Virus record (IMG/VR): IMGVR_UViG_3300027516_000001
Span: 1-50,164 of that record
Reading direction: 5' to 3' (one strand)
From: a virus
Taxonomy: Duplodnaviria; Caudoviricetes
Length of the DNA: 50,164 nt
The notes under the pieces were generated by a model. It did not search any database, was not told the origin of the DNA, and saw only the letters and a program-made list of their open reading frames with translations. Both the position numbers and the translations under genes were made by a program. How positions within the stretch are numbered: position 1 is the first letter of the stretch; each line of letters begins with the position of its first letter. Below are positions 9,343-26,885 of this stretch, in pieces.

Positions 9343-12103
9343 TGCTGCGCGTTTTCTAGGCCCGATTGAAGCTGACGTTCAAGCGTTTCATAAACAACAA
9401 ACTGAAATTAGCAAATATGCCGACTTCGATGCTTATGACAAAGAGGTAAAGAAAGTTATGCTTAAAGATACGAAATTAGATCCATTTAGAGTTCCAGCGT
9501 ATGACGGTCTTATGAATTCTCTTCATAGGTGGAAAGTTATAGCATCTTCTACTGGTAAAATGACTCCAGATCAAAAAAGAGAAGTAGCTTCAAATTATTT
9601 TAATAAAGTAATAGTACCAATGTATCAAAGAATGGGATCTCAGCCTCCCTCTGAGAAGGTTTGGCAAGAGCAAGCGTATGATAGAGCTTTAAAATGGAAT
9701 TTAGACGATGCGTATGATAATAATTGGAGTAGAGGTTATTATGAAGGCTTTAGACAATATGAAAATGCGATGAAGCTGGGTGTATCCTTTTTAGGAGGCA
9801 TGGCGAAAGATTACTTTTCACTCTTTCCTTCAGGTATTCCTAAAGGTCAAGGTGTAAGAGAACACTATGAAGAGGAGGCGCGTAAAATTCCCGTAGTTGG
9901 TGGTTTCATGAAGTCATTAGATCGCTCTATTTCTCAAGATACATTCTGGCATGATATTCAACCTAATCATGGATGGGGAGATAAAGCTCAATCTCTTATT
10001 GCTGAGCAAACAATGATGCTTCCATTGTATTTCGCATCTGGAGGATTCGCGGGTGGTATAATGGAAGGATTAGGTACAGGAGGAGGTTTGACTGCGAAAC
10101 TTCTTGCGAATCCTGCTGGTAAACTCGCTGGTCATTTACTTGCGAATGGTACGGAAGGTGCAGCTTATGGTTACGCGATGGCTAATGACGATGATAAAAA
10201 AGATTGGTGGAGAATGGCTATAGCTCAAGCAGTGTTTGGTACTGCTATACATTTTGGATTTGGAGGAGTTGGTAAAGTTTTTAAAAGTATAACTTCATCT
10301 TCAGCATCTAAAAAAGCTGCGGCAGATGTTTTACAAAAAGGATTAAAAGACGCTGACTCTGGCGATCTTAAAGAGAATCTTATACGTAGTTTAGGTGGTA
10401 TAATGGCCGCTGGAGGTAGACCAGCAGCACATGAGTGGATTGATGCAGCTATGAATTTTGCAAGACATACAGAACATCTATCAGATCAAGATTATGGGCA
10501 AGCTGTACAAAATGCTATAAAGGAAGATCCTGCGCGAAATCATGGCGTAACTACGATAGGTACATATATAAAGAAATATGTAAAAGAGCATTTTGATGGA
10601 AGAAGTTTTGATAACTTAACAGGATTAGAGAAGCATGAGTTAGAGGTTCATGTTGGTTCTTTAATAGAAGAAGCAGGAAATAGAGTTCCTGAGACAGTAC
10701 AAAGTGTTGCTAAACAAGCTGGAACTGACGCTGTAGAGAGTACTAAGAATGGAAAAAATCCTAACGGAGCGAAGCAAATAGCTGAAAGAGCTAATGAAAT
10801 TCATCAAGAGAATGTAAAAAATGGAATGCCAGATACTCCTGAAAATAAAGCTAGAGCGCAGAAGATGGCTGAAATGGAGTATGCAGAAAAGAATGCAAAA
10901 GCTGCTGCTAGAGCAGCGAAGGCTAATGCTGCAAAGCCTGTAAAAGAGGCTCAAGATATAAATGCGCGAAAGAACGGGGCATCTTATCCTAAAGATACTC
11001 CAATTGGAATTCGCGTAAGTAAGCCTAAGTATGGGCATGGTGGAGTTAATTATGATCTTGAGTTTGAAGATCCTAGAGATAAAGCCGCATATATAATTGG
11101 AAATAGAGGCAAAAGTGCTGCGCATGATTCTATTGCAGAGTGGTATACTAGAAGTGGACCTATAACTGAAGCTGAAGCGCATTCGCAGAGAATTAAAGAT
11201 TTTATTGCGAAAGCAATTAAAAAAGGAGCTAATCCTGATGAACCTATTAAGATTCCTAAGATTGGTGCGAATGCTGAAGTTAAAGTAAAACCAAAACCTA
11301 CAACATCTGCTTCATCTCGCGTGGCTCCTACGGTATCTTATAGAACTACTTCTCGCGTATCTAAAACAGGAGAAAGAAGTGTCTCTTTTAACACGCAGCA
11401 CTCTTGGATTGTTTACGCTAAGAAAGCTGTAAAAGAGGCTGGATTAAAATGGAATAATGAAGATATCCAAAAATGGCTCTATGAGATGGTTGATAATGAT
11501 CCTAGAGAATTCGCGAAGGATCTCCATGAGCATTTTTATCCAAAAGATTTGAAAGATCAAGGAATTTGGTTTGAATCTCAGAGTACTCCTACATTAGGAA
11601 AAGAAGATCCAAACTTCTTAGCGTTTATGTATAATTATACCGATCAAATGCCAAAAGAGTTCGCTGAAGCTCTTTCTTATGCTATTGAAGAAACTGCCAA
11701 GTTTGAAAAGAATATGGAAGGAACTGTATCTACGGATCTTCAGAAGAATGAATATGCAAAGAATGTATGGAATCATGTTGCTGAAATGATCCATCATCCT
11801 AAATTTACTTCTGGAGAGGAAGCGAACATTTATAGAAGTTCTTATCCAAACATGCGTACTCCATCGAAATGGCAGGGATCTAAAACTCTTGCGGAAATTG
11901 AAGACAATGAGCGTAATATGATTAAGGAAATGTTCAAAGGTAATCCTACGGCAGGAAAAGCGGCTATGGCAGCATATGAAGCTGCTGCTTCAAGTAGAAG
12001 ATCTGCTATTAAATTGAAAGATCCAGAAGCTAGAAAAGCTGCGAATTTCGCAATTGATGACGTTCTTGTAAGTACTGGAGAAAGGGAGAGGATGGAATTT
12101 TAA
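9188..12103 (+). CDS. Large putative ejection/internal virion protein
   Basis: 971 aa, helical with Gly/Ala hydrophobic segments; strong RBS AGGAGGT at 9174-9180. Confidence 0.6.
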   Translation: MPQDQMTIVTPEGRGISTVPIAGSTPLSPIQMPPEELAEPKQEISTSGTSISAARFLGPIEADVQAFHKQQTEISKYADFDAYDKEVKKVMLKDTKLDPFRVPAYDGLMNSLHRWKVIASSTGKMTPDQKREVASNYFNKVIVPMYQRMGSQPPSEKVWQEQAYDRALKWNLDDAYDNNWSRGYYEGFRQYENAMKLGVSFLGGMAKDYFSLFPSGIPKGQGVREHYEEEARKIPVVGGFMKSLDRSISQDTFWHDIQPNHGWGDKAQSLIAEQTMMLPLYFASGGFAGGIMEGLGTGGGLTAKLLANPAGKLAGHLLANGTEGAAYGYAMANDDDKKDWWRMAIAQAVFGTAIHFGFGGVGKVFKSITSSSASKKAAADVLQKGLKDADSGDLKENLIRSLGGIMAAGGRPAAHEWIDAAMNFARHTEHLSDQDYGQAVQNAIKEDPARNHGVTTIGTYIKKYVKEHFDGRSFDNLTGLEKHELEVHVGSLIEEAGNRVPETVQSVAKQAGTDAVESTKNGKNPNGAKQIAERANEIHQENVKNGMPDTPENKARAQKMAEMEYAEKNAKAAARAAKANAAKPVKEAQDINARKNGASYPKDTPIGIRVSKPKYGHGGVNYDLEFEDPRDKAAYIIGNRGKSAAHDSIAEWYTRSGPITEAEAHSQRIKDFIAKAIKKGANPDEPIKIPKIGANAEVKVKPKPTTSASSRVAPTVSYRTTSRVSKTGERSVSFNTQHSWIVYAKKAVKEAGLKWNNEDIQKWLYEMVDNDPREFAKDLHEHFYPKDLKDQGIWFESQSTPTLGKEDPNFLAFMYNYTDQMPKEFAEALSYAIEETAKFEKNMEGTVSTDLQKNEYAKNVWNHVAEMIHHPKFTSGEEANIYRSSYPNMRTPSKWQGSKTLAEIEDNERNMIKEMFKGNPTAGKAAMAAYEAAASSRRSAIKLKDPEARKAANFAIDDVLVSTGERERMEF

Positions 12104-14055
12104 TGGGTGGAGCAATAGCAGATGCGTTTAGCTCTCTTCTAAAGGGATTAGGTCCAGCGGTTAAAGAAGTAGCTACTGGCGAAAGTAAAGAATTCCCTGA
12201 GATGATGCAGAAGATTCCCCTAGGACGTAAAAGTTCTATGTGGGATGTTACTGGTGCTATGGATGATGTATTTAGAACTGGAGGTGATAAGGGAGTTAAA
12301 ATTCAACAAATGCATAGTCAATGGCAAGTGGCTAGAGCGCAAGCTCAAAAGAAGCTTCAAGCTCCTATTACTCAAATTTCTGATGCTATAGCGGAAGATA
12401 ATAATTTAAGTTCTAAGGTAAGTTTGAACTCTAAACTTGGCGATATCCATGCAACGATGAAAGCTCAAAATCATCCATTAACAAACGTAGCAGGTAGCTT
12501 AGCTGGTCCTACTGGAGATGGATTCTTAAAGACTCTTGAGCAACATTCTACTGGCGTTATTTCTCAAGCTAGAATGCAAGCATCTGCTCAAATATATGGA
12601 GATAAAATGCAGAATCTATTTCCACATATTATAGATGCTTTTGATTCAAAAGATCCTCTTCAAGAAACATGGGCGAGAACTGTATTAAATGTTATATCTC
12701 GCGAAACGCATGATAATACTCAAGTATTTAATCCTATCTTAGATACTACGCACGAGGTTTCTGGAGTAAAGAGCCAGATTCAAAAAGCAATTAAAAGAGA
12801 AAATCTCATGCGTGAAAAACTTGGAGAGGATAGACCTCAACTTCCAGCAATTGACGTATCGCGTACTTACATCTCTGCGGGAACGATGGAATATCGTATA
12901 AATAATATTCTTCGCGCAGTTCAGTTACCTTTTGTGGCTTTAAAGCACATTTCTCAAATTGGAAATCTCTCAAGTATTCCAGCGCCAATGCTTATTAAGG
13001 GATTGCTTAGTATGGGGGATGAGGAATTTAAAACTCATCTTGATATATCAGCAATTCTTGCTTATACAGATCATGATATGATGGATAAGCAAATAAGAGG
13101 AAGATTTGGTTTAATATCTAAGATAACAGGAAATCCCACCGCAGGTGATTTATTCTACAGATCTTATCACATGCCACTCTTTAATTATGTTCGTGCTCGT
13201 CAATTAACTATGGCTGCATCTGTAGGATATCATTCTGCTAATGTATGGGCAAAGCAACTCCTTGAAGGAAATAAGAGAGCTTTAGAAGAAATTAAAGAAA
13301 TGGGATTAGATCCAGAGCAAATTTTAAAGCAAAAGGGAATTCTTACAAACGAGCAAAAAACTCAAGCAATGTTTCAATTTGTAAATAATCGCTTCTTTAT
13401 GGATAAGAGCATAGAGCGTTCTATGGCTGCATCTTCTCATCCTATTTTACGCTCTGCTACTATGTATCATACATTTATAAATGCACAACAACGCTTTATG
13501 CGTAGAGAACTTGCGAAGATGGTTAGAGCTAGAGACTTCGTTGGAATAGGTCAGTTCGCAGGAACTATAGGAGTTTTATATCCTATGGTAGCTCCTATGC
13601 TTAAATCTCTCGAAGTTTTTGGACGCACTTTTAGTCCAACTCAAGCAGGGAGAAGTGCAAGAGAAGATTATGATAAGTTAATTAATGGTTCCTTTGGAGA
13701 TAGAGCAGGTACTTATCTTGATCTTCTAGCGCATTATGGTTCTTTAGGAATATATAATGGATATTTAAATGCAGCTAAGACAGATCGTTTTGCATATCAA
13801 TTACTAGGTCCAAACATAGCTGTTGGAGCAAGGTTTGCTGGAGATGCTCTTAAATCTGCTTTAGTTACAAATCAAGCAGGAAAGCATAATCTTGCTCCTC
13901 CAGTGCGCGATTTGCTTGAGCTGGTTCCTATTATTGGAAGTCCTATTGCTCACAAAGTTGCTCCTACTCTTAAAGAGCAGAAAGATGAATCTGGGCGATT
14001 ACCAAGACCTCATCGTCCTTCACGTCGTCAATCAGGCAATTTCTGGGAATTTTAA
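12103..14055 (+). CDS. Putative ejection/internal virion protein
   Basis: 650 aa helical protein with C-terminal LLGP....G...LLELVPIIG typical of large podophage ejection proteins; TAATG coupling. Confidence 0.6.
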   Translation: MGGAIADAFSSLLKGLGPAVKEVATGESKEFPEMMQKIPLGRKSSMWDVTGAMDDVFRTGGDKGVKIQQMHSQWQVARAQAQKKLQAPITQISDAIAEDNNLSSKVSLNSKLGDIHATMKAQNHPLTNVAGSLAGPTGDGFLKTLEQHSTGVISQARMQASAQIYGDKMQNLFPHIIDAFDSKDPLQETWARTVLNVISRETHDNTQVFNPILDTTHEVSGVKSQIQKAIKRENLMREKLGEDRPQLPAIDVSRTYISAGTMEYRINNILRAVQLPFVALKHISQIGNLSSIPAPMLIKGLLSMGDEEFKTHLDISAILAYTDHDMMDKQIRGRFGLISKITGNPTAGDLFYRSYHMPLFNYVRARQLTMAASVGYHSANVWAKQLLEGNKRALEEIKEMGLDPEQILKQKGILTNEQKTQAMFQFVNNRFFMDKSIERSMAASSHPILRSATMYHTFINAQQRFMRRELAKMVRARDFVGIGQFAGTIGVLYPMVAPMLKSLEVFGRTFSPTQAGRSAREDYDKLINGSFGDRAGTYLDLLAHYGSLGIYNGYLNAAKTDRFAYQLLGPNIAVGARFAGDALKSALVTNQAGKHNLAPPVRDLLELVPIIGSPIAHKVAPTLKEQKDESGRLPRPHRPSRRQSGNFWEF

Positions 14056-14069
14056 CTAAGGAGATAATC

Positions 14070-14234
14070 ATGAGTGGACAAAGCGCAAATCTTACTCTCG
14101 CAGAGGCAAAGGCCATGCAAGAGTGTGTTCAAGCTTCAGGTTCTCATGCTTCCAATAATGGAGGCTCTAAAAAGGGCGGGGGATCTAAGAAAGGAGGTAC
14201 ACCTCTTGATTCAAAAGTAGCACATCAGGGGTAA
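14070..14234 (+). CDS. 54-aa Gly/Ser/Lys-rich peptide (not in ORF track): MSGQSANLTLAEAKAMQECVQASGSHASNNGGSKKGGGSKKGGTPLDSKVAHQG
   Basis: Translated by hand; RBS TAAGGAG 6 nt upstream; fills the gap exactly and ends 7 nt before the ATP-grasp gene. Confidence 0.75.
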   Translation: MSGQSANLTLAEAKAMQECVQASGSHASNNGGSKKGGGSKKGGTPLDSKVAHQG

Positions 14235-14241
14235 TAAGACA

Positions 14242-15546
14242 ATGCGGATAGCACTATCTTCGTATACTGGTTTAGGAGCATGGTTTGTCCTTCGTTTACT
14301 CTCGGAAGGACATGATGTGGATTATTTTCTTTCTAAATCAGAATACGGAGATGTGCTATCTGGCATTATTCCGAAGCCTAAAGTTTTAAGCATTGACCAC
14401 CGTAGAACTCTACAAGGATTTGGTTATGCATCTTACGCAGGATATGACCTCTCGATATTTGATCTTACGGGAAAAGCTAGACAAGCGGATTCTTCAAAAG
14501 GAGAATGTCCTACCTTTGGAGATGGAACGTTTGAATGCTTACTCGAAGATGATAGAGAAGCAGGGATCAAGTTCATGGAAACCTGTGATATCAAAACGCC
14601 ACCATACCAGAGATTCGATAAGGCTTCAGACGCTAAGAGTTTCATTAGAAAAACTGACAAAAGATATGTCTTCAAGCCCTTTACTCCGAGTGGCAGTACT
14701 CAAGATACTTCTACGACGTATGTATCCAAAGATGCAGAGGATATGATAAAGAACATAGATAATCTCTGCGCAGATGCTAAAGGGATGCCCTTTATCCTAC
14801 AAGAGTATATTAAAGGAATTGAACTCTCAGTTGAAGGATGGTTTAATGGAGAAGATTTCTTCCAAGTTACATGCGATATAGAAGAAAAGAAATTCATGAA
14901 CGATTGCAAGGGACCGAATACGGGATGTTCTGGAAATTTGATCTTCGCGATACATCAAGATATGCATATATATAAGGATACGCTTTTAAAGGCGAAGCCT
15001 CTTTTGCAAAAGATTGGATTCAAAGGAGTTATAGATGTCAATTCGATTGTTACTTCAGGGGAAGCTTATTCGCTTGAATGGGGACCAAGGTTTGGTTATC
15101 TATGTTGCCCTGTGTTTAGTAATATGTATGGCTCTGGTTTTGGAGATTTTCTTCATGCTATTGCATCGGGGAAAACTCCAAACACAAAATGGGCAGCATC
15201 CTTTGGAGCAGCAGTTACTATATCAGTACCCCCATATCCAACAGAAATACGTATGCCTAAAGCAAAGGATCTTCCTATAGAAGGAATTGATCCATATAAC
15301 TTAGATGAACTCCTAAATTGTTATCTCTATGACGCGAAATTAAATGGAAAAGGATTGATTACATCTGGTAATTATGGCTATATAGGCGCTCCTATAGGAG
15401 TTGGAGACTCTATAACAGAAGCGTTCATTAAATGTGATCGGCTTCTTGAACGAATTCAGATTCCTAATATGCAATATAGAACAGATATAGAGAAAGTGTG
15501 TTCAAAGAAATTCTATGATCTTGAGAGGGATGGGTGGTTCTCATGA
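14242..15546 (+). CDS. Divergent PurD (GAR synthetase)-like ATP-grasp ligase
   Basis: FILQEYIKGIELS, KKFMNDCKGPNTGCSG, LEWGPRFG, PPYP and YRTDI align with PurD motifs; lacks GxGGREH and EFNxRFGDPE. Confidence 0.85.
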   Translation: MRIALSSYTGLGAWFVLRLLSEGHDVDYFLSKSEYGDVLSGIIPKPKVLSIDHRRTLQGFGYASYAGYDLSIFDLTGKARQADSSKGECPTFGDGTFECLLEDDREAGIKFMETCDIKTPPYQRFDKASDAKSFIRKTDKRYVFKPFTPSGSTQDTSTTYVSKDAEDMIKNIDNLCADAKGMPFILQEYIKGIELSVEGWFNGEDFFQVTCDIEEKKFMNDCKGPNTGCSGNLIFAIHQDMHIYKDTLLKAKPLLQKIGFKGVIDVNSIVTSGEAYSLEWGPRFGYLCCPVFSNMYGSGFGDFLHAIASGKTPNTKWAASFGAAVTISVPPYPTEIRMPKAKDLPIEGIDPYNLDELLNCYLYDAKLNGKGLITSGNYGYIGAPIGVGDSITEAFIKCDRLLERIQIPNMQYRTDIEKVCSKKFYDLERDGWFS

Positions 15547-18422
15547 AACTTCGTTATCTTCTTCTTTTGCTTTTTGCGACTCAAGCGTTAGCTCAGAGTG
15601 CTACTATCTCTGGCACTGTTACGGATACAGATAGTCAATTATGGTTTGGTGGAACATGGGGATATGAATTTTATCCTAATCCATCGTATCCGAACTTGAG
15701 TTCTTATTATGTTGGAAATGTTCCTTTAAGTACGTATTATACTAAACCTATTACAGGGCAAATGGATGCTACGCTTGGAACATTTACAATGAATAATTTG
15801 ATTCAAAATAATCTTATATCTCCTTCAGGTTCTCAGTGGACTTTGAAGTTCTGTCCTCAAGCATCCTCTGGATGTGGATCATTTCTTATAACAATGAATG
15901 TTCCATCCATAACAGGATCAACAATAATCAATGGAATTACATTTAATGCTCTCATTACTTCTCGAATTACAGCGCCTCGCTTTGAAGCCGTAGCTGGAGC
16001 TTTTGGTTATAGCGATCTAGAAGCGTCAGGTGGAAATCAATTAGTAGCTGGCTCTACGTATTGGAATGTTACGCAAGCTTGTCAGAGATATTATGTAGCG
16101 TTTCCTCCAGGATGGAGTTGTGGAGGTGGAGGAGGTAGCAGCGGGACCGTATCCGGGCAGGCTGCGAACACCATTCCTCTTGGCACCAGTTCAACCGTAA
16201 TCGGAAATCAGTCGCACATAACAGACAATGGCGCCACCGTAGCCTCGTCGGAGCCTTTGACCGCGCCTAGCATGACCGGGGCTCATTACGATACAGGCGG
16301 CGCGGTCTTCAATGTCAAGGCATATGGAGCGACCGGCAACGGATCGACAGACGATACTTCATCTATAAATGCGGCCATTGCTGCACTGAACACGGCTGGA
16401 CGAGGTGCCCTTTTCTTCCCGGAAGGCACCTACTACACTGCGGCCTGTAACTTCACCACCATTTCGGCTCAGGTCACGATTTTTGGAGTTGGGGCCAGTA
16501 ACGAGTGGTACTCGTCACCTAATTCCCAGATCAATTGTGCTTCGACAACTGCGAACCTGTTCACGCTGGCGGGATACGCCAACACTGTCAGAGACATGGG
16601 ATTCCACAATACGAACGGCGGCACCATCGGAACCTCGACTGCCGGAGCGGCTATCTATGTCGTGACCACAAATCCGTTAGGTAGAACTAACATCGAGAAT
16701 AGTTCCTTTTACGGGTTTTATGACGGCGTCTATGAGTCAGTCGGCTCTGCCTGGCACATCACTGGAAATCACTTTCTAAACCAGACCAGGTACTGTGTCA
16801 ATGTTAATAACACCGTGGTTACCGATGACGGGGACTGGGTCATCGCACAGAACTACTTCGGAAACACGACTAACTCGAGCAGTCCCACTCAGGCCGCAAT
16901 TGCTATTCTGGGTTCCGGCGGCGCGAAGATGCATCACAACAAGATCAATGCGTGGTTCGTGGATGGAATCTATCAGAACGCGACCGGGTCTTCGCAGACT
17001 CTGATCCAGGACAACGACATCGAAAACGTCACGCGCTACGCAATTAACATGACGTCGACCTGGCCGATGGTGATGATTGAAGACAACTATATCGCTGGCG
17101 CGGCGAACGAGCCGGATATCTACTTCGGGGCCATCGTTGGGAACGTGATTATCACCGGCAACTTGCTGGAGACCTATGCCACGGGAGCGATGACTCAATA
17201 CGCGGTTCAGTTCCCCAGCGCCGGAATGACTTTTACCGCAGTAACAAACAACGTCGTGAACGCTTTTTTTGCTGGTCAGGTGAACTACGGAACATACGCC
17301 ACGCCTCCATATCTTCAAATTGGCTGCGGAGACTCAAGTTGTAATGATTCGCCCACTCTCAGGCTGTACAGCCAGGTGACCGGCTCCTCTTTCTATAGTC
17401 AAATCGTTTCTTCGTGGGCTGGTAACGGTCTTACTTTCAACCTGCCGCGCACTCTCAGCGGCAAAGGATACCACTTCCAGGACAGCGGAACGACAGACTT
17501 ATTTGTTATTGACAGCGCCTCTGGCGCGGGTACATTCAAGGGCGGCATTTCCAGCCAGGCTGCCACCGAGGATGACGGTATAGGTAATGCAAGCTGGAAA
17601 GGTAACACGTTCCAGCTTGGGTGCACGGCCTCTACTTGCGGTAACAACGTTACTCTAACGTTTGGCTCATACGTCGCGGGAACTGGTGCTGTTACCAACG
17701 GTATTACTTCTAGTTGGGCTGGTGATGGTATCGACTTTACACTGCCGCGAAACCTGCAAGGCAAGGGATATTACTTCAAAAACAACGGTGGCAGCGCAAC
17801 GCCTGTATTCTTCGACGCTACTGCGCCGAACGGCAGCTTCCAGGTACAACAGACTTACGGACAGGTCAACATTGGACAGATGGAGTCCTACACGATAGGA
17901 ACGGCCATCGCTTCAGCCGCCTCGATTAGTCCTACAAATTCTGTAATACACATCACCGGCACGACGACAGTGAACACCATCAATCCTTACGGTGCTGGCG
18001 GGCAGGGTTGTTACCTCTCTGGAGAGTCGTGCAAGTTGACGCTCATTCCAGACGGAGCCTGGGCGCTTGGCACAAGCGGAAACATTGCTCAGGCCATGCA
18101 GTCGGTGGTCGGCGTCCCGATCACGCTCTATTACGACAACAACACCAGCAAATGGTATCCGGAGGGCGGGTCGAATCTTATTGCCGGTGTAGCAACGTTG
18201 GTATCTGGCACGGCTACGGTCAGTACAACATCGGCATGTGCTGTCGCCGCCGGGTCCTGCGAATATATCTTGTCACGCTGTGGTCCTAACAGTTCCACCG
18301 CAATCGGTTCGCTGTCTACGGGTACGATCACAGTCGGCACGAGCTTTGTTATTAACTCACTTTCAGCTACTAACACCGTAGCGACGGGCGACCTAAGTAC
18401 AGTCTGTTGGAAGATCAACTAA
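15543..18422 (+). CDS. Tailspike/receptor-binding protein with pectate-lyase-like beta-helix and N-terminal signal-peptide-like sequence
   Basis: FNVKAYGATGNGSTDDTSSINAAI...LFFPEGTY (Pectate_lyase_3 motif) and parallel beta-helix repeats; ATGA overlap with ligase stop. Confidence 0.85.
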   Translation: MKLRYLLLLLFATQALAQSATISGTVTDTDSQLWFGGTWGYEFYPNPSYPNLSSYYVGNVPLSTYYTKPITGQMDATLGTFTMNNLIQNNLISPSGSQWTLKFCPQASSGCGSFLITMNVPSITGSTIINGITFNALITSRITAPRFEAVAGAFGYSDLEASGGNQLVAGSTYWNVTQACQRYYVAFPPGWSCGGGGGSSGTVSGQAANTIPLGTSSTVIGNQSHITDNGATVASSEPLTAPSMTGAHYDTGGAVFNVKAYGATGNGSTDDTSSINAAIAALNTAGRGALFFPEGTYYTAACNFTTISAQVTIFGVGASNEWYSSPNSQINCASTTANLFTLAGYANTVRDMGFHNTNGGTIGTSTAGAAIYVVTTNPLGRTNIENSSFYGFYDGVYESVGSAWHITGNHFLNQTRYCVNVNNTVVTDDGDWVIAQNYFGNTTNSSSPTQAAIAILGSGGAKMHHNKINAWFVDGIYQNATGSSQTLIQDNDIENVTRYAINMTSTWPMVMIEDNYIAGAANEPDIYFGAIVGNVIITGNLLETYATGAMTQYAVQFPSAGMTFTAVTNNVVNAFFAGQVNYGTYATPPYLQIGCGDSSCNDSPTLRLYSQVTGSSFYSQIVSSWAGNGLTFNLPRTLSGKGYHFQDSGTTDLFVIDSASGAGTFKGGISSQAATEDDGIGNASWKGNTFQLGCTASTCGNNVTLTFGSYVAGTGAVTNGITSSWAGDGIDFTLPRNLQGKGYYFKNNGGSATPVFFDATAPNGSFQVQQTYGQVNIGQMESYTIGTAIASAASISPTNSVIHITGTTTVNTINPYGAGGQGCYLSGESCKLTLIPDGAWALGTSGNIAQAMQSVVGVPITLYYDNNTSKWYPEGGSNLIAGVATLVSGTATVSTTSACAVAAGSCEYILSRCGPNSSTAIGSLSTGTITVGTSFVINSLSATNTVATGDLSTVCWKIN

Positions 18423-18461: not shown

Positions 18462-18869
18462 ATGTTAGTTTTGTTCTTTTTTGTAGTAACAATGGCACAT
18501 CAGGCAAAACTTTATTATCAAAACACAGCTTGCACTACAACTACGCCTTGTCAATTACAAGTATATAGAGCAACTTGTTCTTCAAGTACGAAATGTCCTG
18601 CATTCAATTTAAACTCACCTTCGTGGAAACAATTATCCTCCGGTTCTGCTACTGCAATCATAACTACAACAGGAACTAAATGGACTGTTGTAGATAATGA
18701 TCCTGCCTTGCAAGATAACACAACGTATGCATATTGCGCTACGAATTCATTCACTTCAGCACCTACTGTGCTTTCGAATTGTGGATATGGCTGGAAAGGA
18801 ACTACTGGAGCAGCAAATGCGAACATACCATCAACTCCTACTGTGGGCACTGGCAACTCCGTTAATTAG
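18462..18869 (+). CDS. Secreted-type Cys-rich Fn3-like single-domain protein
   Basis: Hydrophobic N-terminus; CxxxxxCxLQVYRAxCxxxxxCP ... D..L...TTY.Y.ATN. Confidence 0.75.
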   Translation: MLVLFFFVVTMAHQAKLYYQNTACTTTTPCQLQVYRATCSSSTKCPAFNLNSPSWKQLSSGSATAIITTTGTKWTVVDNDPALQDNTTYAYCATNSFTSAPTVLSNCGYGWKGTTGAANANIPSTPTVGTGNSVN

Positions 18870-19986
18870 TCAAACAATTCCTCCAGCTCCGCAAATCCAA
18901 GGTGTAAGTGGAGCTGTAGGCGTAAACACCTTAACCGTACATGAACCTATGTGTTTATATGGAGGAACTGCGTGTGGTTTAAGCGATTGTGGATGTTGGT
19001 GGCAGATATATAGAGCGCAATGTTCTTCAAGCACAAGTTGTCCTGCAATAACATCTCCAGCTGGAACTTATATAAATCCCACAAATACTGCTGTCTCTTC
19101 ATCCTCTACAGATAGCGCAGGAACAGGAACTAATGTTGTATTTACGGATACAGATTCTGCTCTTGTTTCAGGCACTACTTGGCAATACTATATGACAGTA
19201 AACTATGCACAATACACGCCTGTCACTTATAGTCCTGCCTCAAATATTAGCGGTCCTGTAGTATTAGGGGGCACGACTTCTGCTACTACGATATTTTCTG
19301 TGTATTTAGATTATGACAATGCTTCATGTAATACTGGAACAGCGTGTAAACTCTCTACATGTACATGTTCTACAAATGTATATAAAGCTATATGTTCTTC
19401 ATCTACAGCATGTCCTACATATCCTAACGGAACATGGAGCAAACTTGCTTCTGTGGATTCTTCAAATAATTCTTATGTAAATACAACAGTGAGTGCTACA
19501 AATACGCATTTTCATTATAAAGATGATGGCGCTATCGTGAATAATCTTAAATATAATACAATCTACACCTACGTTGCAACCAATACCTACACAGCAGATC
19601 CAACTTCAACAGAGAGTAAACCAGGTTCTCCTGTAATTAAAGGAACTCCTGATCATATGGCTGCTATAAATTGGAGCAATCCAAGTTGTAACACAACAAC
19701 GCCTGCATGTACTTTTCAAGTTTATCGCGTAGTTTGTACTAGCTCAAACTCTTGTCCTACGTATCCTTCAGGAACTTGGACAAAATTAAATATGACATCT
19801 GGTTTAACCACTACTATAACTACACAAGGTACTTCATGGAGATACGCTGATATGGACCCTACTTTAGCACCTTCTACAACGTATTCGTGGGTAGCAACTG
19901 CTTCTTGGAATAGTACTACTTCTTCCCCAGCGTCAGCACCTTTTGTCGGAACAACAATTTCAACACTAACAAGGAGAGTAAAATGA
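18817..19986 (+). CDS. Secreted-type protein with three Cys-rich Fn3-like repeats
   Basis: Start moved to ATG 18817 (GGAG RBS, signal-like MRTYHQLLLWALATPLISQ); three copies of the motif. Confidence 0.75.
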   Translation: MRTYHQLLLWALATPLISQTIPPAPQIQGVSGAVGVNTLTVHEPMCLYGGTACGLSDCGCWWQIYRAQCSSSTSCPAITSPAGTYINPTNTAVSSSSTDSAGTGTNVVFTDTDSALVSGTTWQYYMTVNYAQYTPVTYSPASNISGPVVLGGTTSATTIFSVYLDYDNASCNTGTACKLSTCTCSTNVYKAICSSSTACPTYPNGTWSKLASVDSSNNSYVNTTVSATNTHFHYKDDGAIVNNLKYNTIYTYVATNTYTADPTSTESKPGSPVIKGTPDHMAAINWSNPSCNTTTPACTFQVYRVVCTSSNSCPTYPSGTWTKLNMTSGLTTTITTQGTSWRYADMDPTLAPSTTYSWVATASWNSTTSSPASAPFVGTTISTLTRRVK

Positions 19987-20453
19987 AAATAGCGTTTCTT
20001 CTGATTCTCATGCTTTTTGGTCAAGCTAGGAAACCAATGGTATCTCCGCCTCAGGTGGGAGTTACATCTTCAACCGGGCCTCACCAAGCTGTTCTAAATT
20101 GGAGCAATCCCTCATGTACTACAAATGCGCAATGTAGTCTTCAAGTATACAGAGCGCAATGTACATCTATAACTTCCTGCCCAGTATATTCTCCAGGCTC
20201 TGGCTCATTTACTACGTTAGTAATGACAACGAACTTGGTTCCTACTGTTGGCGCAAGTGGAACATCGTGGGTCTATACAGACTCTACGCAAAACGCTGCG
20301 ATGCAAGATTCTACTACGTATGTGTGGGTAGCTACAAACACATATGTAAATGGCTCACAACCATCAGGTGCTAGCACTGCGTATAGCGGAACCACAAACA
20401 ATGGTACTCCTTCGGCGCCAACTTTGAGCGCGAATGGGAATAGTGTGAACTAA
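19983..20453 (+). CDS. Secreted-type Cys-rich Fn3-like single-domain protein (paralog of 18462)
   Basis: Signal MKIAFLLILMLFGQA; same motif; same GNSVN C-terminus. Confidence 0.75.
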   Translation: MKIAFLLILMLFGQARKPMVSPPQVGVTSSTGPHQAVLNWSNPSCTTNAQCSLQVYRAQCTSITSCPVYSPGSGSFTTLVMTTNLVPTVGASGTSWVYTDSTQNAAMQDSTTYVWVATNTYVNGSQPSGASTAYSGTTNNGTPSAPTLSANGNSVN

Positions 20454-20863
20454 TGAAACTTCTCATTATTCTCCTACTTCTCCAATCTGGATTTGCGATT
20501 AATAAGAATGGACCTCGCGCTGGAATAGAGCTGCGTCCTGATGATCCTCATCGAAATAACGGAGATTTGATGGTTAAATGTATTCAACAAAGTAACGGCG
20601 GAGGATGTAATGTACGCTTTACTCCAGGTGAATACTATATCTATAAACCAATTGAATTTCCGTCAGGCGTTCTAGATGCAAATCTAGAAGGAGTGCTCAT
20701 TCATGTTTGTGCTAAAATGGGATTTGTATTTGGCACAATAGCTATAGGTCCGTGGGGTTCTGCATATATTCATCACATAGCTGTAATTTCCAATGTACCT
20801 TGTGGAACATGGAGGCCAGAATATGCGTATCAACCATTTTTTGAGGTTATTAGAAGGCGTTAA
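20453..20863 (+). CDS. Signal-peptide protein, possibly a beta-helix cap fragment
   Basis: MKLLIILLLLQSGFA; GG..VRFTPGEYYIYKPI resembles a pectate-lyase-like N-cap. Confidence 0.55.
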   Translation: MKLLIILLLLQSGFAINKNGPRAGIELRPDDPHRNNGDLMVKCIQQSNGGGCNVRFTPGEYYIYKPIEFPSGVLDANLEGVLIHVCAKMGFVFGTIAIGPWGSAYIHHIAVISNVPCGTWRPEYAYQPFFEVIRRR

Positions 20864-22010: not shown

Positions 22011-22200
22011 TATACACCCCCATTGGTTTGTTTGTAAGAGTGAGAAGATCATCAATGGTAACTTTGTTACCTGTGATTATATCTTCCCAAACTTTGGTTG
22101 TGTCTTCGTCGAGCTTATACTCTAAGACAATTACTCTTAGAGCATTTTGCTCCAACGTAGTCAAGTGGCGAATGCTGTTCATTTTCCTGCTCCTTTTCAA
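21868..22200 (-). CDS. Hypothetical protein overlapping the small basic protein in another frame
   Basis: Coupled to the groES-like stop; open frame. Confidence 0.45.
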   Translation of the reverse strand: MKRSRKMNSIRHLTTLEQNALRVIVLEYKLDEDTTKVWEDIITGNKVTIDDLLTLTNKPMGVYNAFEEGQIEESRIREYQGDDGIWPSTETSSSSISRNSEEIRKEEEIL

Positions 22201-22937
22201 TTGGCTTGAATAAGGAAATCAAACGCCGCGAGATCTTCACCTCCTGTGATTTTACACCACGCTTGTGAAGCATCCATGATCTTGAACATCAATCCTGCTT
22301 TCGTAGGAATCATACTTCCAGCGTATGGTCCAAAGAGAATCCTATCTCCTACTTTAAAGTGCAGCTTCTCAATATCGCATTGCGATCCAATAGAAACTAC
22401 AACTCCTGTAGTCGGTAGATTCTTACTGTTATCTGGAAGATGAAGTAAGGCTCCAAGTCCCTTACATTCGGGACATGTTTCATCGTGTTGTACGGAAATA
22501 TAATTTCCGTTACACTCGGGACAGGGCATATTAACGCGAGCGTTAGCAACATCTTCACCCAAAGACTCTTTGATTGTTTGAATTTCATCTGGTCCATATC
22601 TCACTCCTGCGTGTCCACTCGCTTCACAATTGCAAAGAATGTGTATTGACTTTTTTCCTTTGCATTTTCTACATTCATACCCGCTTTTAAAAACATCGAT
22701 GGAAACAAGAATCTTTTCTCCGAGAGATTCGAATTTGTACGGAAACCCTGGAAAAGAGACTTCGTTTGAGTTGTCGAGAATAAGCTCAGTCGTACTTTTA
22801 CTTGCATTTTCCGCATCGATCCTTTCTTGCAGCTCTCTTACTCCCTTTGCGAGAGCTTCTGTTCCACTCGCAGCACTGGTTGACTTATGAATGGAATGTT
22901 TTGTCTCTCCGATTTGGTAATTGATTGTGTCATTCAT
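22197..22937 (-). CDS. groES: Co-chaperonin GroES/Cpn10-like protein with inserted DnaJ-type zinc finger
   Basis: SLGEKILV...LHLPD..K..PTTGVVVSIG...KVGDRILFGPYAG...KIM is the Cpn10 core; insert has CxxCxG repeats. Confidence 0.8.
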   Translation of the reverse strand: MNDTINYQIGETKHSIHKSTSAASGTEALAKGVRELQERIDAENASKSTTELILDNSNEVSFPGFPYKFESLGEKILVSIDVFKSGYECRKCKGKKSIHILCNCEASGHAGVRYGPDEIQTIKESLGEDVANARVNMPCPECNGNYISVQHDETCPECKGLGALLHLPDNSKNLPTTGVVVSIGSQCDIEKLHFKVGDRILFGPYAGSMIPTKAGLMFKIMDASQAWCKITGGEDLAAFDFLIQAN

Positions 22938-24157
22938 GGTTTACTCCCGTTTCTTAATCTCCACATTGTGGTCTTACCTACACTTGATGTTTCGCAAACG
23001 CTTGTATATTCAAGCAACCAAAGACATCTGTCAAGAGTCTCGATTGTTACATAATTGCGTAAATGCTTAAGCATAGATTGTTTGCTAGATATTCCAACTT
23101 TCTCAAGATAAGTTTGAATCTTTCCCATTGGGATAGCTAATTCAGATTCACCAGTTCCTCTAAAGATTTTCTCAAGATCTTTAAATACAGCTTTAATATA
23201 AAGAATCGCATTATCCATATCAATTCCCTCAATTATAAGCGAGTCTTTTCGCGCTGCTGCTAAGATCATCGCTAATTTTAATGTGTGCGTTTTAATACGA
23301 CCTCTAAAGTTAGCCACAGGTTCACTATCCATATCATTAGTGATATCAACGATCTTAAGAAAATTTTCAAATTTAACGCGCGCTTCTGTGTTACAGGTAT
23401 ATTCTCCTTTAAGGTTATATGATATATGCTGTAGGTCATTTTTAATACCCTGCATAATAGAAACAGATTGAGGATTAGATTCAAGAGCAGGAGGGAATGG
23501 AAGATACCTAGCGCGTTGATCAGCATATATAAATAAACACCTAGAAGTGAAGCCACCTGAGACTGGAAGATTGATATTTTTATTAATATTTTGTATAAAA
23601 TTAGGAACAGTGGCAGCGATAAAAGAATTGCACATACTTTTAATAGTATGCGTACCTTTGTTTTTCGTATCATATTCATAATCATGCCTATCCCAAGTGT
23701 CTGTTAAAAACGTCAACATCCAATCACTTGCAGTAAGTAAAACTTGAAGTTCAGTACTTACTATTAAGGATGTATGATCTAAAGCTCCTCCTATAACAAC
23801 TTGACCATTAACAATCTGAGGAACAGAAGAGTTCCATCCATTCGAAATCCTCTCTATAATCCTCGGTGCTGTAGTACGATCGGGAATTATGTTTATAATT
23901 TCGTTTGGTGCTGTACTCTTGATTATGTCCATTACAAAATTGATTGTCGTTCCCTTTCCTATTGCGGGCGGGGATACAAGGATGATGTATTGATTTGGAT
24001 ATAGTTCGAATAACCCCTCCTTGATGTAAACTTTGTTCTTAAGAACTGCTCCAATTAACGAAAACGCACCCCAAGTAATGAATTTATCAGGCGCTTCAGT
24101 GTGAGGTTGAACGCATCTTAGTATTGCGTCGTGGATACTAAATTTCAACTGCCTCAT
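22934..24157 (-). CDS. DUF3987-like P-loop helicase (primase-helicase C-terminal type)
   Basis: PNQYIILVSPPAIGKGT Walker A; LTDTWD, AATVP, GGFTSRCLFIY, HTLKLAM; C-terminal wHTH-like. Confidence 0.75.
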   Translation of the reverse strand: MRQLKFSIHDAILRCVQPHTEAPDKFITWGAFSLIGAVLKNKVYIKEGLFELYPNQYIILVSPPAIGKGTTINFVMDIIKSTAPNEIINIIPDRTTAPRIIERISNGWNSSVPQIVNGQVVIGGALDHTSLIVSTELQVLLTASDWMLTFLTDTWDRHDYEYDTKNKGTHTIKSMCNSFIAATVPNFIQNINKNINLPVSGGFTSRCLFIYADQRARYLPFPPALESNPQSVSIMQGIKNDLQHISYNLKGEYTCNTEARVKFENFLKIVDITNDMDSEPVANFRGRIKTHTLKLAMILAAARKDSLIIEGIDMDNAILYIKAVFKDLEKIFRGTGESELAIPMGKIQTYLEKVGISSKQSMLKHLRNYVTIETLDRCLWLLEYTSVCETSSVGKTTMWRLRNGSKP

Positions 24158-25613: not shown

Positions 25614-25788
25614 TGACTTTTACCCCCGTAAGTTTGTACCCGATGAAATTGTGAATAGGGAAATAATCATTTTCTAACCTATAACACATCTCATTTACTG
25701 CCCAGATGCTCTTTTCGCGCAGATCTTCTTCTTTATAATCTGCGCTTATTGTAACTTCGATTGTGAGTTTGATCTCATTCATGCTCAT
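25603..25788 (-). CDS. Small hypothetical protein between the two polymerase halves
   Basis: ATGA overlap with the exonuclease stop; overlaps the pol start. Confidence 0.55.
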   Translation of the reverse strand: MSMNEIKLTIEVTISADYKEEDLREKSIWAVNEMCYRLENDYFPIHNFIGYKLTGVKVNGV

Positions 25789-26885
25789 CCCCTTAAGTGA
25801 GGTCTTTCTTTGAACTCTTCTTCTTGAGCTTCCCACACTTCGTAAGTGACACACACGTCGAGCGCATTATAATGCATTAAATCCGTCATATGCTTTATAT
25901 TCCATCTCTTGCCGTCGTCTTTATAGAATGGAGTTCTTGTATATTGACGCGTCATAAATTGAAGCTTATGCGAAAGCTCAGGCCATAGAATATGATGCCT
26001 AATTAAGGTATCTTCTACCTGCTTAGGCTTTATATTAAATCCTATGGCTGCTTGGTAGTAAGTATCGAAGTTAATAAAATTTTGACCGATGATTCTTGCC
26101 TGAGAGATGAGATCATCATATGCTCTCCATAGAATTCTACTTTCCTCGATGCTGTCACGATATAATCTGAATGATACCCCGAAATCAGCTGAATCTGCGA
26201 GTCCAATGACGATAGCAAAACCTGGGTGAGGAAAGAACTTTGATTCCTTTTTTGGATAGACCGTCTCAATATCATTAGAGAGATATTTTGCTCTGGAAAA
26301 TCTTTCGAAGTAGTTAAGTAACTCGTTAAGATCAATTTGATCATAACAGATGAGTTTCCTTTCGCGAAGTGGCTGCACTTTACCAGTTACTTTCCAATAA
26401 TTGAACTCATCTTTTATTTTCTGAAGATCAATATACACAGTGACGTTACGCTCTGTCCAATCTTGTGCGCATTTATCAGGACCATGTATTGGCATCATAT
26501 AATGAGGGAAAGGAAATCTATCACATGTCATGAGAGAGCCAACGTACTTATTTAATTGAGTCTTATAGCTCTCTTTTACAGAGCGCGCTCTCATCTCAGG
26601 AAAGAAATAAGATCCCACTTCATTAGCCAATAACATAAAAGGAGGCTGATAATTGAGAAGAGCACTATCAATAGTAGCGTACAAAGTAGGATTATCAGTA
26701 TCCGGCCTACGAGCACACACATATATATCGAAAATGTTAAGTCCTGCCTCTGAGAGCATCTTCTCGAATACATAACCCATACCTCCACTAAAGAGATATC
26801 CTTTTGGAATATCCGAAGGAAAAGGATGATCCAGAATCAACCAAATTCGCGATGCTGGATCACCCCTTGTGTGTATATACGGCAT
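25785..26885 (-). CDS. Degenerate family-4 UDG-like domain fused to PolA 3'-5' exonuclease
   Basis: G...SRIW.I...P...D..KG.LFSG..G..F..ML..AG (UDG-like); ExoI DIET, ExoII GQNFINFD, ExoIII YNALDV. Confidence 0.85.
   Translation of the reverse strand: MPYIHTRGDPASRIWLILDHPFPSDIPKGYLFSGGMGYVFEKMLSEAGLNIFDIYVCARRPDTDNPTLYATIDSALLNYQPPFMLLANEVGSYFFPEMRARSVKESYKTQLNKYVGSLMTCDRFPFPHYMMPIHGPDKCAQDWTERNVTVYIDLQKIKDEFNYWKVTGKVQPLRERKLICYDQIDLNELLNYFERFSRAKYLSNDIETVYPKKESKFFPHPGFAIVIGLADSADFGVSFRLYRDSIEESRILWRAYDDLISQARIIGQNFINFDTYYQAAIGFNIKPKQVEDTLIRHHILWPELSHKLQFMTRQYTRTPFYKDDGKRWNIKHMTDLMHYNALDVCVTYEVWEAQEEEFKERPHLRG

What the first reader, a model, noticed from the sequence alone, without database searches (positions are those of the whole stretch)
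14070..15546. Repurposed PurD-like ATP-grasp ligase coupled to a Gly-terminated, Lys-rich peptide: candidate phage peptide-conjugation system
Seen: an unannotated 54-aa low-complexity peptide (strong RBS; GGSKKGGGSKKGG repeat; ends ...AHQG) sits 7 nt before a PurD-like gene, whose stop overlaps the tailspike start. The ligase keeps ATP-binding motifs (YVFKP, LQEYIKG.E, GPNTG) but lacks the PurD N-terminal GxGGREH, and EFNxRFGDPE has become EWGPRFGYLC. No other purine genes are present, and the gene lies between ejection proteins and tailspike. Known: PurD activates the glycine carboxylate and forms an amide; other ATP-grasp enzymes (RimK, graspetide synthetases) modify proteins and peptides. 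Inference: this is probably not a purine AMG. It may ligate the peptide's C-terminal Gly to amines (Lys of virion or host proteins, or other copies of itself), a ubiquitin/Pup-like tagging or cross-linking chemistry, or it may modify virion proteins.
Basis: partly seen in the sequence, partly recalled or inferred. Interest (0 to 1): 0.82.

Follow-up and report, generated by a model that had tools for sequence, protein, structure and literature searches.

The report
Phage PurD-like ligase beside basic mini-protein
Two real late genes of an uncultured 50-kb phage, a 54-residue basic mini-protein and an enzyme shaped like the purine enzyme PurD but re-tooled for an unknown substrate, sit side by side, yet the evidence does not support the idea that the enzyme uses the mini-protein as a glycine-ended tag.

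Summary
A 54-aa ORF (14070-14234) with a strong ribosome-binding site lies 7 nt before a 434-aa PurD-fold ATP-grasp gene (14242-15546), whose stop overlaps the next gene's ATG.

Both genes are real and conserved.

**Ligase.** It is not PurD: it scores 72.7 bits on TIGR00877 against a cutoff of 288, it lacks the GGREH loop, and E-x-N has become E-x-T (G here). It belongs to a large family found almost only on phage contigs: 210 representative clusters below 1e-30 and 225 viral loci. The ATP-grasp catalytic residues are kept. In relatives, inteins sit in five different invariant motifs.

**Mini-protein.** It is conserved mainly at the N-terminus (invariant M-[S/A]-G-Q) and has a Lys/Gly/Ser/His-rich tail. 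Of 120 relatives, only 22 end in Gly; 39 end in Cys and 36 in Lys. It always abuts the upstream 650-aa gene, other genes separate it from the ligase in five of the 29 variants, and none of the 80 wider-family loci fetched has it.

**Reading.** In the wider family the ligase usually follows a cell-wall hydrolase gene instead. I read it as a non-purine amide ligase whose substrate is shared family-wide. Peptide tagging remains a minority reading (about 0.1).

This scan has met the same ligase family before on other DNA.

The parts
12103..14055 (+). 650-aa virion-module protein of unknown family (called 'ejection protein' by position only). The mini-protein gene always follows it directly.
   Evidence: No Pfam or PHROG hit. 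Its only PDB hit is a de novo designed protein at E 0.01, which I treat as chance. Homologues precede the mini-protein gene in all 26 variants where both could be measured, with a gap of -4 to +39 nt.
14058..14063 (+). Shine-Dalgarno AAGGAG of the mini-protein gene, 6 nt before the ATG.
   Evidence: Read from the sequence. A GGAG-type RBS is seen in nearly all 29 variants.
14070..14234 (+). 54-aa basic mini-protein. It has an invariant M-[S/A]-G-Q N-terminus, a predicted helix at residues 5-18, and a Lys/Gly/Ser/His-rich disordered tail ending in HQG in this phage.
   Evidence: 29 variants, synonymous Ser codon switches; 136 relatives; termini C 39, K 36, G 22 of 120; AF2 helix 5-18, mean pLDDT 58.8.
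14242..15546 (+). 434-aa PurD-fold ATP-grasp ligase of a family found almost only on phage contigs.
   Evidence: Pfam GARS_A/ATP-grasp_3. AF2 pLDDT 94.1. Best PDB folds are all PurD, TM 0.69-0.79, E 1e-26 to 2.5e-22. TIGR00877 gives 72.7 bits against a cutoff of 288. Family size.
14674..14676 (+). Codon of Lys145 (in YVFKP), the invariant ATP-binding lysine. It corresponds to Lys143 of Aquifex PurD.
   Evidence: Invariant in 58 of 58 aligned family members. PurD residue roles come from a passage of PMC8880213. The mapping uses the alignment.
14911..14928 (+). GPNTGC loop (residues 224-229), conserved with PurD's GPNTGG. It is a site of an intein insertion in a relative.
15076..15105 (+). EWGPRFGYLC (residues 279-288). 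This is the family's E-[FW]-T-P-R-F-G-Y version of PurD's E-F-N-x-R-F-G-D-P-E. Here Thr is Gly, Arg283 is kept, and the Glu that binds glycine in PurD is Cys.
   Evidence: (108 of 119 close relatives have T, 9 have G).
15543..18422 (+). Downstream depolymerase-like ('tailspike') gene. Its ATG overlaps the ligase stop (ATGA), and its product starts with a signal-peptide-like leader.
   Evidence: (Pect-lyase_RHGA_epim, K1-lyase_C).

Best explanation
These are two separate, conserved late genes of an uncultured ~50-kb podovirus-like phage.

**(1) The mini-protein.** The 54-aa product is a small basic protein that belongs with the preceding 650-aa virion-module gene. It has a short N-terminal helix with an invariant M-[S/A]-G-Q start and a disordered Lys/Gly/Ser/His tail. 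It is most likely a minor virion or ejected component, or a helper of the upstream protein (inferred).

**(2) The ligase.** The 434-aa product is an active ATP-grasp amide ligase descended from PurD.
- Shown: it keeps the ATP site and the acyl-phosphate machinery.
- Shown: it keeps two of the three glycine-contacting residues of PurD (Asp212 becomes Glu214; Arg287 is Arg283).
- Shown: it has lost the third (Glu292 becomes Cys/Ala), the Mg-site Asn, and the whole GGREH acceptor loop.
- Inferred: it still activates a small, probably amino-acid-like carboxylate with ATP and joins it to an amine that is not phosphoribosylamine.

**Substrate.** The pocket residues are invariant across a family far wider than the mini-protein, so the substrate should be something common to all these phages or their hosts. 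My ranking of the acceptor, all inferred:
- a cell-envelope or peptidoglycan-type amine, about 30%
- a Lys or N-terminus of a virion or host protein, about 25% (the mini-protein itself about 10%)
- a small polyamine-like amine, about 20%
- a nucleotide, DNA or other acceptor, about 20%
- true PurD chemistry, 5% or less
For: **Fold and family**
- AF2 model pLDDT 94.1.
- All PurD structures lead the fold search: E 1e-26 to 2.5e-22, TM 0.69-0.79 over the whole chain (~440-480 alignment columns). PurK and biotin carboxylase follow at about 1e-15.
- The family has 1676 representative clusters at E<=1e-3 and 210 at <=1e-30, and 225 confirmed viral loci.
- Only 7 loci were found in 185,579 species genomes. 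All are MAGs, three of them contigs of 21-48 kb.

**Not PurD**
- TIGR00877 72.7 bits against a cutoff of 288.
- No GARS_N domain.
- Family consensus S..GDG in place of G.GGREH, and E-[FW]-T-P-R-F-G-Y in place of E-F-N-x-R-F-G-D-P-E.

**Active enzyme**
- Invariant in 58 of 58 aligned members: E102, R105, K145, G192, E214, K216, G224, G228, D265, N267, R283, G285, R413, D415. These map onto the ATP and glycine ligands named for Aquifex PurD in a passage of PMC8880213.
- Five relatives carry inteins, each inserted exactly at a different invariant motif. I take that as a sign of strongly constrained sites (recalled general knowledge about inteins).

**Peptide belongs with the upstream gene**
- Gaps as measured.
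- No promoter-like or terminator-like site between the genes.

**Peptide is not family-wide**
- Its profile finds nothing in the 80 wider-family viral loci. It hits only four MAG loci whose ligases are 37-63% identical to the window's.

**Cell-wall lead**
- Of 53 distinct genes directly upstream of wider-family ligases, 16 carry peptidoglycan-hydrolase-type Pfam domains: Tlde1 9, Peptidase_M15_4 5, Hydrolase_2 1, HH_signal 1.
- A further cluster of 7 matches a solved endolysin, 7q47, at 2.7e-7.
- A cluster of 10 has only weak LAS-fold hits, E about 0.03.
- Many of these genes overlap the ligase start by 3-25 nt.
Against: - No biochemical datum exists, and the substrate ranking is inference.
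- The window itself has no recognisable peptidoglycan hydrolase next to the ligase or anywhere else.
- The hydrolase adjacency in relatives could be simple conserved gene order with in-place swapping of endolysins.
- Inside this clade the peptide and ligase co-occur without exception wherever the contig is long enough: 38 of 42 loci, with the other 4 cut by contig ends; and 26 of 29, with 3 cut. They are 1-27 nt apart in most variants.
- Other, unrelated small ORFs sit before the ligase in some other clades (earlier scan notes). So a peptide link is not excluded.
- This phage's ligase has Gly where the family has Thr in the E-x-T motif (9 of 119 close relatives), so its activity could be altered.
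- The mini-protein's role as a virion component is a guess from position only.
Confidence: 0.6

Rival explanations
1. First reader's model. The ligase uses the adjacent mini-protein as substrate. It either activates the peptide's C-terminal carboxylate and joins it to Lys amines of virion or host proteins or of other copies (a Pup/ubiquitin-like tag or cross-link), or it acylates the peptide's Lys-rich tail or N-terminus.
For: - Peptide and ligase co-occur wherever sequence allows in this clade, and the gap is at most 27 nt in most variants.
- A C-terminal HQG or HQGK motif recurs in 28 of 120 relatives, including divergent ones.
- The tail is Lys-rich in all (K 21% of tail residues).
- Unrelated small ORFs lie before the ligase in some other clades.
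- Some ATP-grasp enzymes do act on peptide termini. RimK, tubulin tyrosine ligase and glutathionylspermidine synthetase are recalled examples, not tested here.
Against: - Terminal Gly occurs in only 22 of 120 relatives, against Cys 39 and Lys 36.
- The end of the ORF overlaps the ligase's Shine-Dalgarno in several loci.
- The conserved part of the peptide is the N-terminus.
- Other ORFs are inserted between peptide and ligase in 5 variants, and never between the peptide and the upstream gene.
- The ligase pocket is invariant across a family in which the 80 wider-family viral loci fetched have no such peptide.
- The ligase belongs to the PurD/PurK/biotin-carboxylase branch, whose known members act on small molecules (recalled).
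Confidence: 0.12
2. The gene is a genuine, divergent purD auxiliary metabolic gene that boosts host purine synthesis.
For: - PurD is the best match by sequence and by fold.
- JGI pipelines name relatives 'phosphoribosylamine-glycine ligase'.
- Passages in two viromics papers list purD as a viral AMG: PMC12647753 and PMC11097641. Whether their genes belong to this family could not be checked, because supplements are closed.
Against: - TIGR00877 72.7 bits against a cutoff of 288.
- The GGREH loop, the Mg-site Asn and the glycine-binding Glu are all replaced family-wide.
- No other pur gene was found among the 37 window ORFs scanned.
- The gene sits in the late virion operon, not among metabolic genes.
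Confidence: 0.04
3. In this phage the protein is a catalytically dead PurD-fold scaffold that serves as a structural or ejected virion protein.
For: - It sits between virion-module genes and is translationally coupled on both sides.
- The Mg-site position is Gly here, where PurD has Asn and the family has Thr.
Against: - All 14 family-invariant residues are present in the window protein, which is the first row of the alignment.
- The G variant is shared by 9 of 119 close relatives that otherwise keep the motifs.
- Inteins target the catalytic motifs in relatives.
Confidence: 0.07

Closest known systems
PurD, glycinamide ribonucleotide synthetase (EC 6.3.4.13; TIGR00877; PDB 5vev, 2yw2, 1gso, 2qk4)
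   Same: The fold matches PurD along the whole chain, with TM 0.69-0.79. The ATP-grasp ATP site, the GPNTG loop, the Arg of the RFG motif and the YR.D motif of the C domain are kept.
   Different: - 17-20% identity in the fold alignments, and far below the TIGR00877 cutoff.
- No GGREH loop.
- E-x-N is E-x-T (G here), and GDPE is GY(L/D)(C/A).
- A new invariant D265-x-N267 appears.
- The gene is phage-borne, in late operons, with no pur context.
Glutathionylspermidine synthetase, RimK and tubulin tyrosine ligase: ATP-grasp enzymes that act on peptide or protein C-termini (recalled, not tested)
   Same: They use ATP-grasp acyl-phosphate chemistry on a peptide carboxylate.
   Different: They belong to other branches of the superfamily. 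RimK-like and TTL-like viral proteins matched the model only weakly (TM 0.3-0.4). Their substrates have conserved C-termini, which the mini-protein lacks.
Cell-wall ATP-grasp ligases paired with M15 peptidases: Ddl/VanA with VanX/VanY, and the D-aspartate ligase Aslfm (recalled, not tested)
   Same: An ATP-grasp ligase encoded next to a stem-peptide peptidase. In the wider phage family the ligase gene follows M15, Tlde1/YkuD-type or other peptidoglycan hydrolase genes.
   Different: The phage ligase is PurD-like, not Ddl-like. The hydrolases may simply be endolysins in a fixed gene order. This window has no such neighbour.
Graspetide (microviridin-type) RiPP systems and Pup/ubiquitin-like tagging
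   Same: A small peptide gene lies next to an ATP-dependent ligase gene.
   Different: Graspetide ligases are of another ATP-grasp branch and need conserved Thr/Ser/Lys plus Asp/Glu core motifs. Pup and ubiquitin need a conserved GG(Q/E) or GG end and a different ligase class (recalled). Neither feature is present here.

Membership tests
PurD (GAR synthetase, TIGR00877 equivalog) | Score at or above the curated whole-protein cutoff | tested here: not met
   72.7 bits against a cutoff of 288.
PurD (GAR synthetase) | N-domain G-x-G-G-R-E-H-A loop and a GARS_N domain | tested here: not met
   No GARS_N hit. The N-terminus reads SSYTGLGAWF, and the family consensus is S..GDG...A. The PurD motif itself is recalled.
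PurD (GAR synthetase) | E-x-N Mg site and the glycine ligands Asp212, Arg287 and Glu292 (Aquifex numbering) | tested here: not met
   The motif is E279-W-G281 here and E-x-T in the family. Asp212 corresponds to Glu214, Arg287 to Arg283, and Glu292 to Cys288. Residue roles come from a passage of PMC8880213.
PurD (GAR synthetase) | PurD fold matched along the whole chain | tested here: met
   TM 0.69-0.79 to 14 PurD structures, E 1e-26 to 2.5e-22.
ATP-grasp superfamily | ATP-grasp fold with a conserved ATP-binding Lys, a hinge motif and an acidic Mg ligand | tested here: met
   GARS_A 6e-12 and ATP-grasp_3 1e-8. K145, Q187-E188, E194 and E279 are conserved.
Pup/ubiquitin-like C-terminal tag | Conserved C-terminal Gly-Gly or Gly-Gly-Gln/Glu on the small protein | tested here: not met
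   Terminal residues of 120 relatives: C 39, K 36, G 22, E 12, other 11. HQG 20 and HQGK 8.
Graspetide RiPP system | A dedicated graspetide-type ATP-grasp enzyme and a precursor with a conserved core of Thr/Ser/Lys plus Asp/Glu | tested here: not met
   The ligase's nearest folds are PurD, then PurK and biotin carboxylase. The peptide tail is variable and poor in Asp/Glu.
Obligate peptide-ligase gene pair | The peptide gene accompanies the ligase across the ligase family | tested here: not met
   The pair is present throughout one clade. The peptide is absent from the 80 wider-family viral loci, and other ORFs separate it from the ligase in 5 variants.

The most novel reading that the evidence does not exclude
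The PurD-derived phage ligases are protein- or peptide-modifying enzymes that act on small, clade-specific, disordered mini-proteins encoded beside them. These would be the basic MSGQSA peptide here, IPGTV-repeat peptides in other clades, and perhaps the acidic mini-proteins reported in earlier scan notes. The enzyme would ligate amino acids or cross-links onto them late in infection. That would be a new phage peptide-conjugation chemistry built on a purine-enzyme scaffold.
Probability: 0.1. Interest if true: 0.85.

Novelty: new variant of a known kind. Interest (0 to 1): 0.5.

Why it matters
Pipelines label this family 'phosphoribosylamine-glycine ligase'. Passages in viromics papers count purD as a purine AMG; whether their genes belong to this family could not be checked. 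For this family that label is very probably wrong.

The family is large. Homologues of the ligase were found on 225 confirmed stretches of viral contigs, most of the 80 fetched coming from contigs of 40-50 kb. In the window's clade it is present in every locus long enough to show it. It sits in late operons and is constrained enough to host inteins in its catalytic motifs. A conserved ATP-dependent amide ligase of unknown substrate, made late in infection, points to an unstudied step of phage biology: cell-wall chemistry, virion or injected-protein modification, or synthesis of a small amide.

I found no description of it in the searchable literature. Searches gave zero papers. The listings, and the passages I read, showed only other amidoligases or purD listed as an AMG.

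The specific tagging idea that made the finding attractive is weakened, which saves effort on the wrong experiment.

Tried and rejected
- **Complex prediction of ligase plus mini-protein**: no verdict (score 0.01 against a mark of 0.32). It counts neither for nor against binding.
- **Wider-family alignment A1** was too diverse for a locus search. A 12-sequence subset, A3, was used instead.
- **No whole genome** is held for the window.
- **Upstream 650-aa protein as a single query** found no loci. An alignment of 9 homologues found 30.
- **PDB sequence searches** with the 650-aa profile and the 971-aa protein gave only chance-level hits, so 'ejection protein' stays a positional label.
- **Viral structure library:** best match to the ligase model TM 0.44; all matches TM 0.51 or lower by either measure.
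- **ESM Atlas:** only PurD-labelled or unnamed viral clusters for the ligase, and nothing for the peptide.
- **GenBank phages:** the best match has 26.5% identity (MW202796.1), and there is no nucleotide match.
- **Decarboxylase lead.** Earlier scan notes say relatives pair with amine-making decarboxylases. None of the 53 upstream neighbours or the 90 other neighbours scanned here had such a domain.
- **Endolysin search in the window** with profiles of the four neighbour clusters found nothing.
- **Literature.** Two searches returned no paper. Iyer et al. 2009 on amidoligases is not held. Several word-start 'purD' hits were Purdue or Purdom.
- **Rejected: conservation of the HQG/KEC endings as proof of a functional C-terminus.** These codons overlap the ligase's ribosome-binding site in several loci.
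Full report
**What is there**

The window is a complete or nearly complete ~50-kb phage genome.
- Packaging and head genes: major capsid protein at 407-1438, large terminase at 43644-45512. A long ORF at 46186-48123 after the terminase may be the portal, but it had no PHROG hit.
- Replication genes on the minus strand at 22-41 kb.
- One long plus-strand late operon from about 2.4 to 20.9 kb.

No whole genome is held for the window, and it has no nucleotide match among GenBank phages.

Inside the late operon, the finding's features are exactly as described:
- A 54-aa ORF at 14070-14234, with AAGGAG 6 nt upstream of its ATG.
- A 7-nt gap, then a 434-aa ORF at 14242-15546.
- The ligase stop overlaps the ATG at 15543 of the next gene as ATGA.

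No promoter-like or terminator-like site separates these genes.

**The ligase is a PurD-fold enzyme but not PurD**

- Pfam gives GARS_A (6e-12), ATP-grasp_3 (1e-8) and a sub-threshold GARS_C, with no GARS_N.
- The NCBIfam purD equivalog scores 72.7 bits against a cutoff of 288.
- An AlphaFold2 model built on 58 relatives is confident (pLDDT 94.1).
- All its best PDB matches are PurD, aligned over the whole chain (E 1e-26 to 2.5e-22, TM 0.69-0.79). PurK and biotin carboxylase follow at about 1e-15.

A passage of PMC8880213 names the ligands of Aquifex PurD: ATP by Lys103, Lys143, Glu185, Glu192 and Lys214; glycine by Asp212, Arg287 and Glu292. Using the HMMER alignment and the family alignment, these map as follows:

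| PurD residue (Aquifex) | Role | Window residue |
|---|---|---|
| Lys103 | ATP | Arg105 |
| Lys143 | ATP | Lys145 |
| Glu185 | ATP | Gln187 |
| Glu192 | ATP | Glu194 |
| Lys214 | ATP | Lys216 |
| Asp212 | glycine | Glu214 |
| Arg287 | glycine | Arg283 |
| Glu292 | glycine | Cys288 (Ala in most relatives) |

Other differences from PurD:
- The Mg-site Asn of E-x-N is Thr in the family. Of 119 close relatives, 108 have LEWTPRFG and 9, including this phage's type, have Gly.
- The N-terminal G-x-G-G-R-E-H loop (a recalled PurD motif) is S..GDG in the family and SSYTGLG here.

So the ATP and acyl-phosphate half is kept, the acyl-donor pocket is partly kept, and the acceptor pocket is rebuilt.

**The family is large and found almost only on phage contigs**

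- An exhaustive HMMER search of 1.84 billion representatives gave 1676 clusters at E<=1e-3 and 210 at <=1e-30.
- The word-indexed search gave 649 proteins at E<=1e-5. Many are on contigs of 46-52 kb, and where named they are called 'phosphoribosylamine-glycine ligase' or 'ATP-grasp domain-containing protein'.
- In IMG/VR, 16 close loci (44-69% identity) and 225 wider-family loci (80 fetched) were confirmed.
- Among one genome for each of 185,579 prokaryote species, only 7 loci appeared. All are in MAGs, three of them on contigs of 21-48 kb.
- No cultured phage in GenBank has a close relative. The best is 26.5% identity, in MW202796.1, where the gene also ends a virion module.
- The viral structure library has no good match.

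Fourteen residues are invariant in 58 of 58 aligned members.

Five longer relatives (729-870 aa) carry Hint/LAGLIDADG inteins. Each is inserted at a different invariant motif: after GxE.S, GPxxG, IDLN, E-W-T and T-P-R. Inteins usually lodge in the most constrained sites of important proteins (general knowledge, recalled). I read this as support for an active, important enzyme.

**The mini-protein is real, but it is not a Gly-terminated tag**

I recovered 29 distinct versions from the fetched loci.
- M1, G3, Q4 and A6 are invariant, and residues 7-24 are well conserved.
- The conserved Ser codons switch between AGY and TCN, and nearly all variants have a GGAG-type RBS.
- AlphaFold2 gives only a helix at residues 5-18, at low confidence (mean pLDDT 58.8).

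A profile search found 136 database relatives. Of the 120 listed:
- All start M-[S/A]-G-Q.
- They end in Cys 39, Lys 36, Gly 22, Glu 12 and other residues 11.
- HQG ends 20 and HQGK ends 8.
- The tail is 21% Lys, 15% Gly, 14% Ser and 8% His.

In several loci the last codons are also the ligase's Shine-Dalgarno sequence: K-E is AAGGAG, and Q-G is CAGGGG or CAAGGA. Part of the C-terminal pattern may therefore be a nucleotide-level constraint.

**Linkage**

- In all 26 variants where it could be measured, the peptide gene starts -4 to +39 nt from the stop of the 650-aa gene.
- The peptide-to-ligase gap is at most 27 nt in most variants. In five variants (L007, L024, L029, L036, L039) 299-401 nt separate them. 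In four of these an ORF of 89-128 aa fills the gap; in L024 only two short ORFs of 35-43 aa do.
- The 650-aa gene, peptide gene and ligase gene occur together in 38 of 42 loci that have the peptide. The other four are cut by contig ends.
- A search seeded with the peptide found 29 loci. 26 have the ligase and 3 are cut. Apart from one new contig, these are the contigs already found.

Co-occurrence is therefore complete, but it lies within a single syntenic clade.

The peptide profile finds nothing in the 80 wider-family viral loci. It hits only four MAG loci whose ligases are 37-63% identical to the window's.

The ligase's pocket residues are the same across the whole family, so a clade-specific peptide is an unlikely general substrate.

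**What the wider family suggests**

Of 53 distinct genes directly upstream of wider-family ligases, many overlapping the ligase start by 3-25 nt:
- 16 have peptidoglycan-hydrolase-type Pfam domains: Tlde1 9, Peptidase_M15_4 5, Hydrolase_2 1, HH_signal 1.
- A cluster of 7 matches a solved endolysin by profile (7q47, 2.7e-7).
- A cluster of 10 carries a LAS-like H..D / H-x-H pattern (by eye) with only weak Hedgehog-N hits (E about 0.03).
- A further cluster is homologous to window ORF 43203-43643.

In 30 of these loci a close homologue of the window's capsid protein lies 0.3-4.5 kb upstream. These are related phages in which the ligase occupies a different slot.

Hydrolases of unrelated folds next to the same ligase could mean a cell-wall function. 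They could equally mean in-place swapping of endolysins in a fixed gene order, and I cannot tell which. The window has no recognisable hydrolase. No decarboxylase, a lead from earlier scan notes, was seen among the 143 neighbours scanned.

**Verdict**

The 'Gly-terminated tag' part is not.

My best reading (confidence 0.6) is an active, non-purine amide ligase with a family-wide substrate, next to a basic mini-protein that belongs with the upstream virion gene.

Rivals:
- peptide modification or tagging: 0.12
- pseudoenzyme or structural protein: 0.07
- true PurD: 0.04

Earlier notes of this scan describe the same ligase family on other DNA with similar conclusions. I treated them as leads only.

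The searchable literature gave no description of the family: searches returned zero papers, and the listings and the passages read showed only other amidoligases or purD listed as an AMG. Two viromics papers list 'purD' as a viral AMG in the passages I read. Whether those genes are of this family could not be checked, because supplements are closed.

Noticed in passing
window 15543-18422; also 18462-18869, 19983-20453, 20453-20863: The depolymerase-like 'tailspike' after the ligase begins with a Sec-signal-like leader (MKLRYLLLLLFATQALA|QS), followed by a conserved TVTDSD..W module. A regex finds the same kind of leader in 19 of 23 distinct relatives. The next three ORFs also start with hydrophobic leaders. 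GC is 52% at 16-18 kb against about 40% elsewhere. Exported proteins in a virion operon are odd.
   Followed up: partly
proteins P0057, P0099, P0101, P0107, P0109 (relatives of window 14242-15546): Five ligase relatives carry Hint/LAGLIDADG inteins, each inserted at a different invariant catalytic motif.
   Followed up: yes
L048-L127, gene directly upstream of the ligase: In the wider family the ligase gene usually follows, and often overlaps, a peptidoglycan-hydrolase gene of one of several unrelated folds: Tlde1/YkuD-like, M15_4, Hydrolase_2, an endolysin-like cluster and a LAS-like cluster.
   Followed up: partly
window 43203-43643 (+); L058, L059, L065, L069, L077, L078, L083, L085, L086, L089, L098, L104, L130: A 146-aa protein of unknown family is encoded just before the large terminase gene. 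Its homologues lie within 0.6 kb of the ligase gene in 12 wider-family loci, and directly downstream of it in L130.
   Followed up: partly
L058, L068, L075, L080, L085, L086, just upstream of the ligase: A different small-ORF family (58-72 aa, starting M[G/S]MKP.L) has about three repeats of an IPGTV(S/T)Q-like motif. It sits between a 129-aa gene and the ligase.
   Followed up: no
window 14220-14241 and the same place in L002, L003, L015, L033, L035: The last codons of the mini-protein gene double as the Shine-Dalgarno sequence of the ligase gene. C-terminal residue conservation is therefore confounded by a nucleotide-level constraint.
   Followed up: yes
L032 6030-7315 (same contig as L142): One relative's ligase is split into two overlapping ORFs. 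This is either a frameshift or an assembly error.
   Followed up: no
window 22197-22937 (-), 24138-25613 (-), 25785-26885 (-), 1450-2019 (+): A protein combines a DnaJ CXXCXGXG zinc-finger stretch with a Cpn10 domain. The DNA polymerase is encoded as separate exonuclease and polymerase ORFs. An HNH endonuclease gene sits directly after the capsid gene.
   Followed up: no
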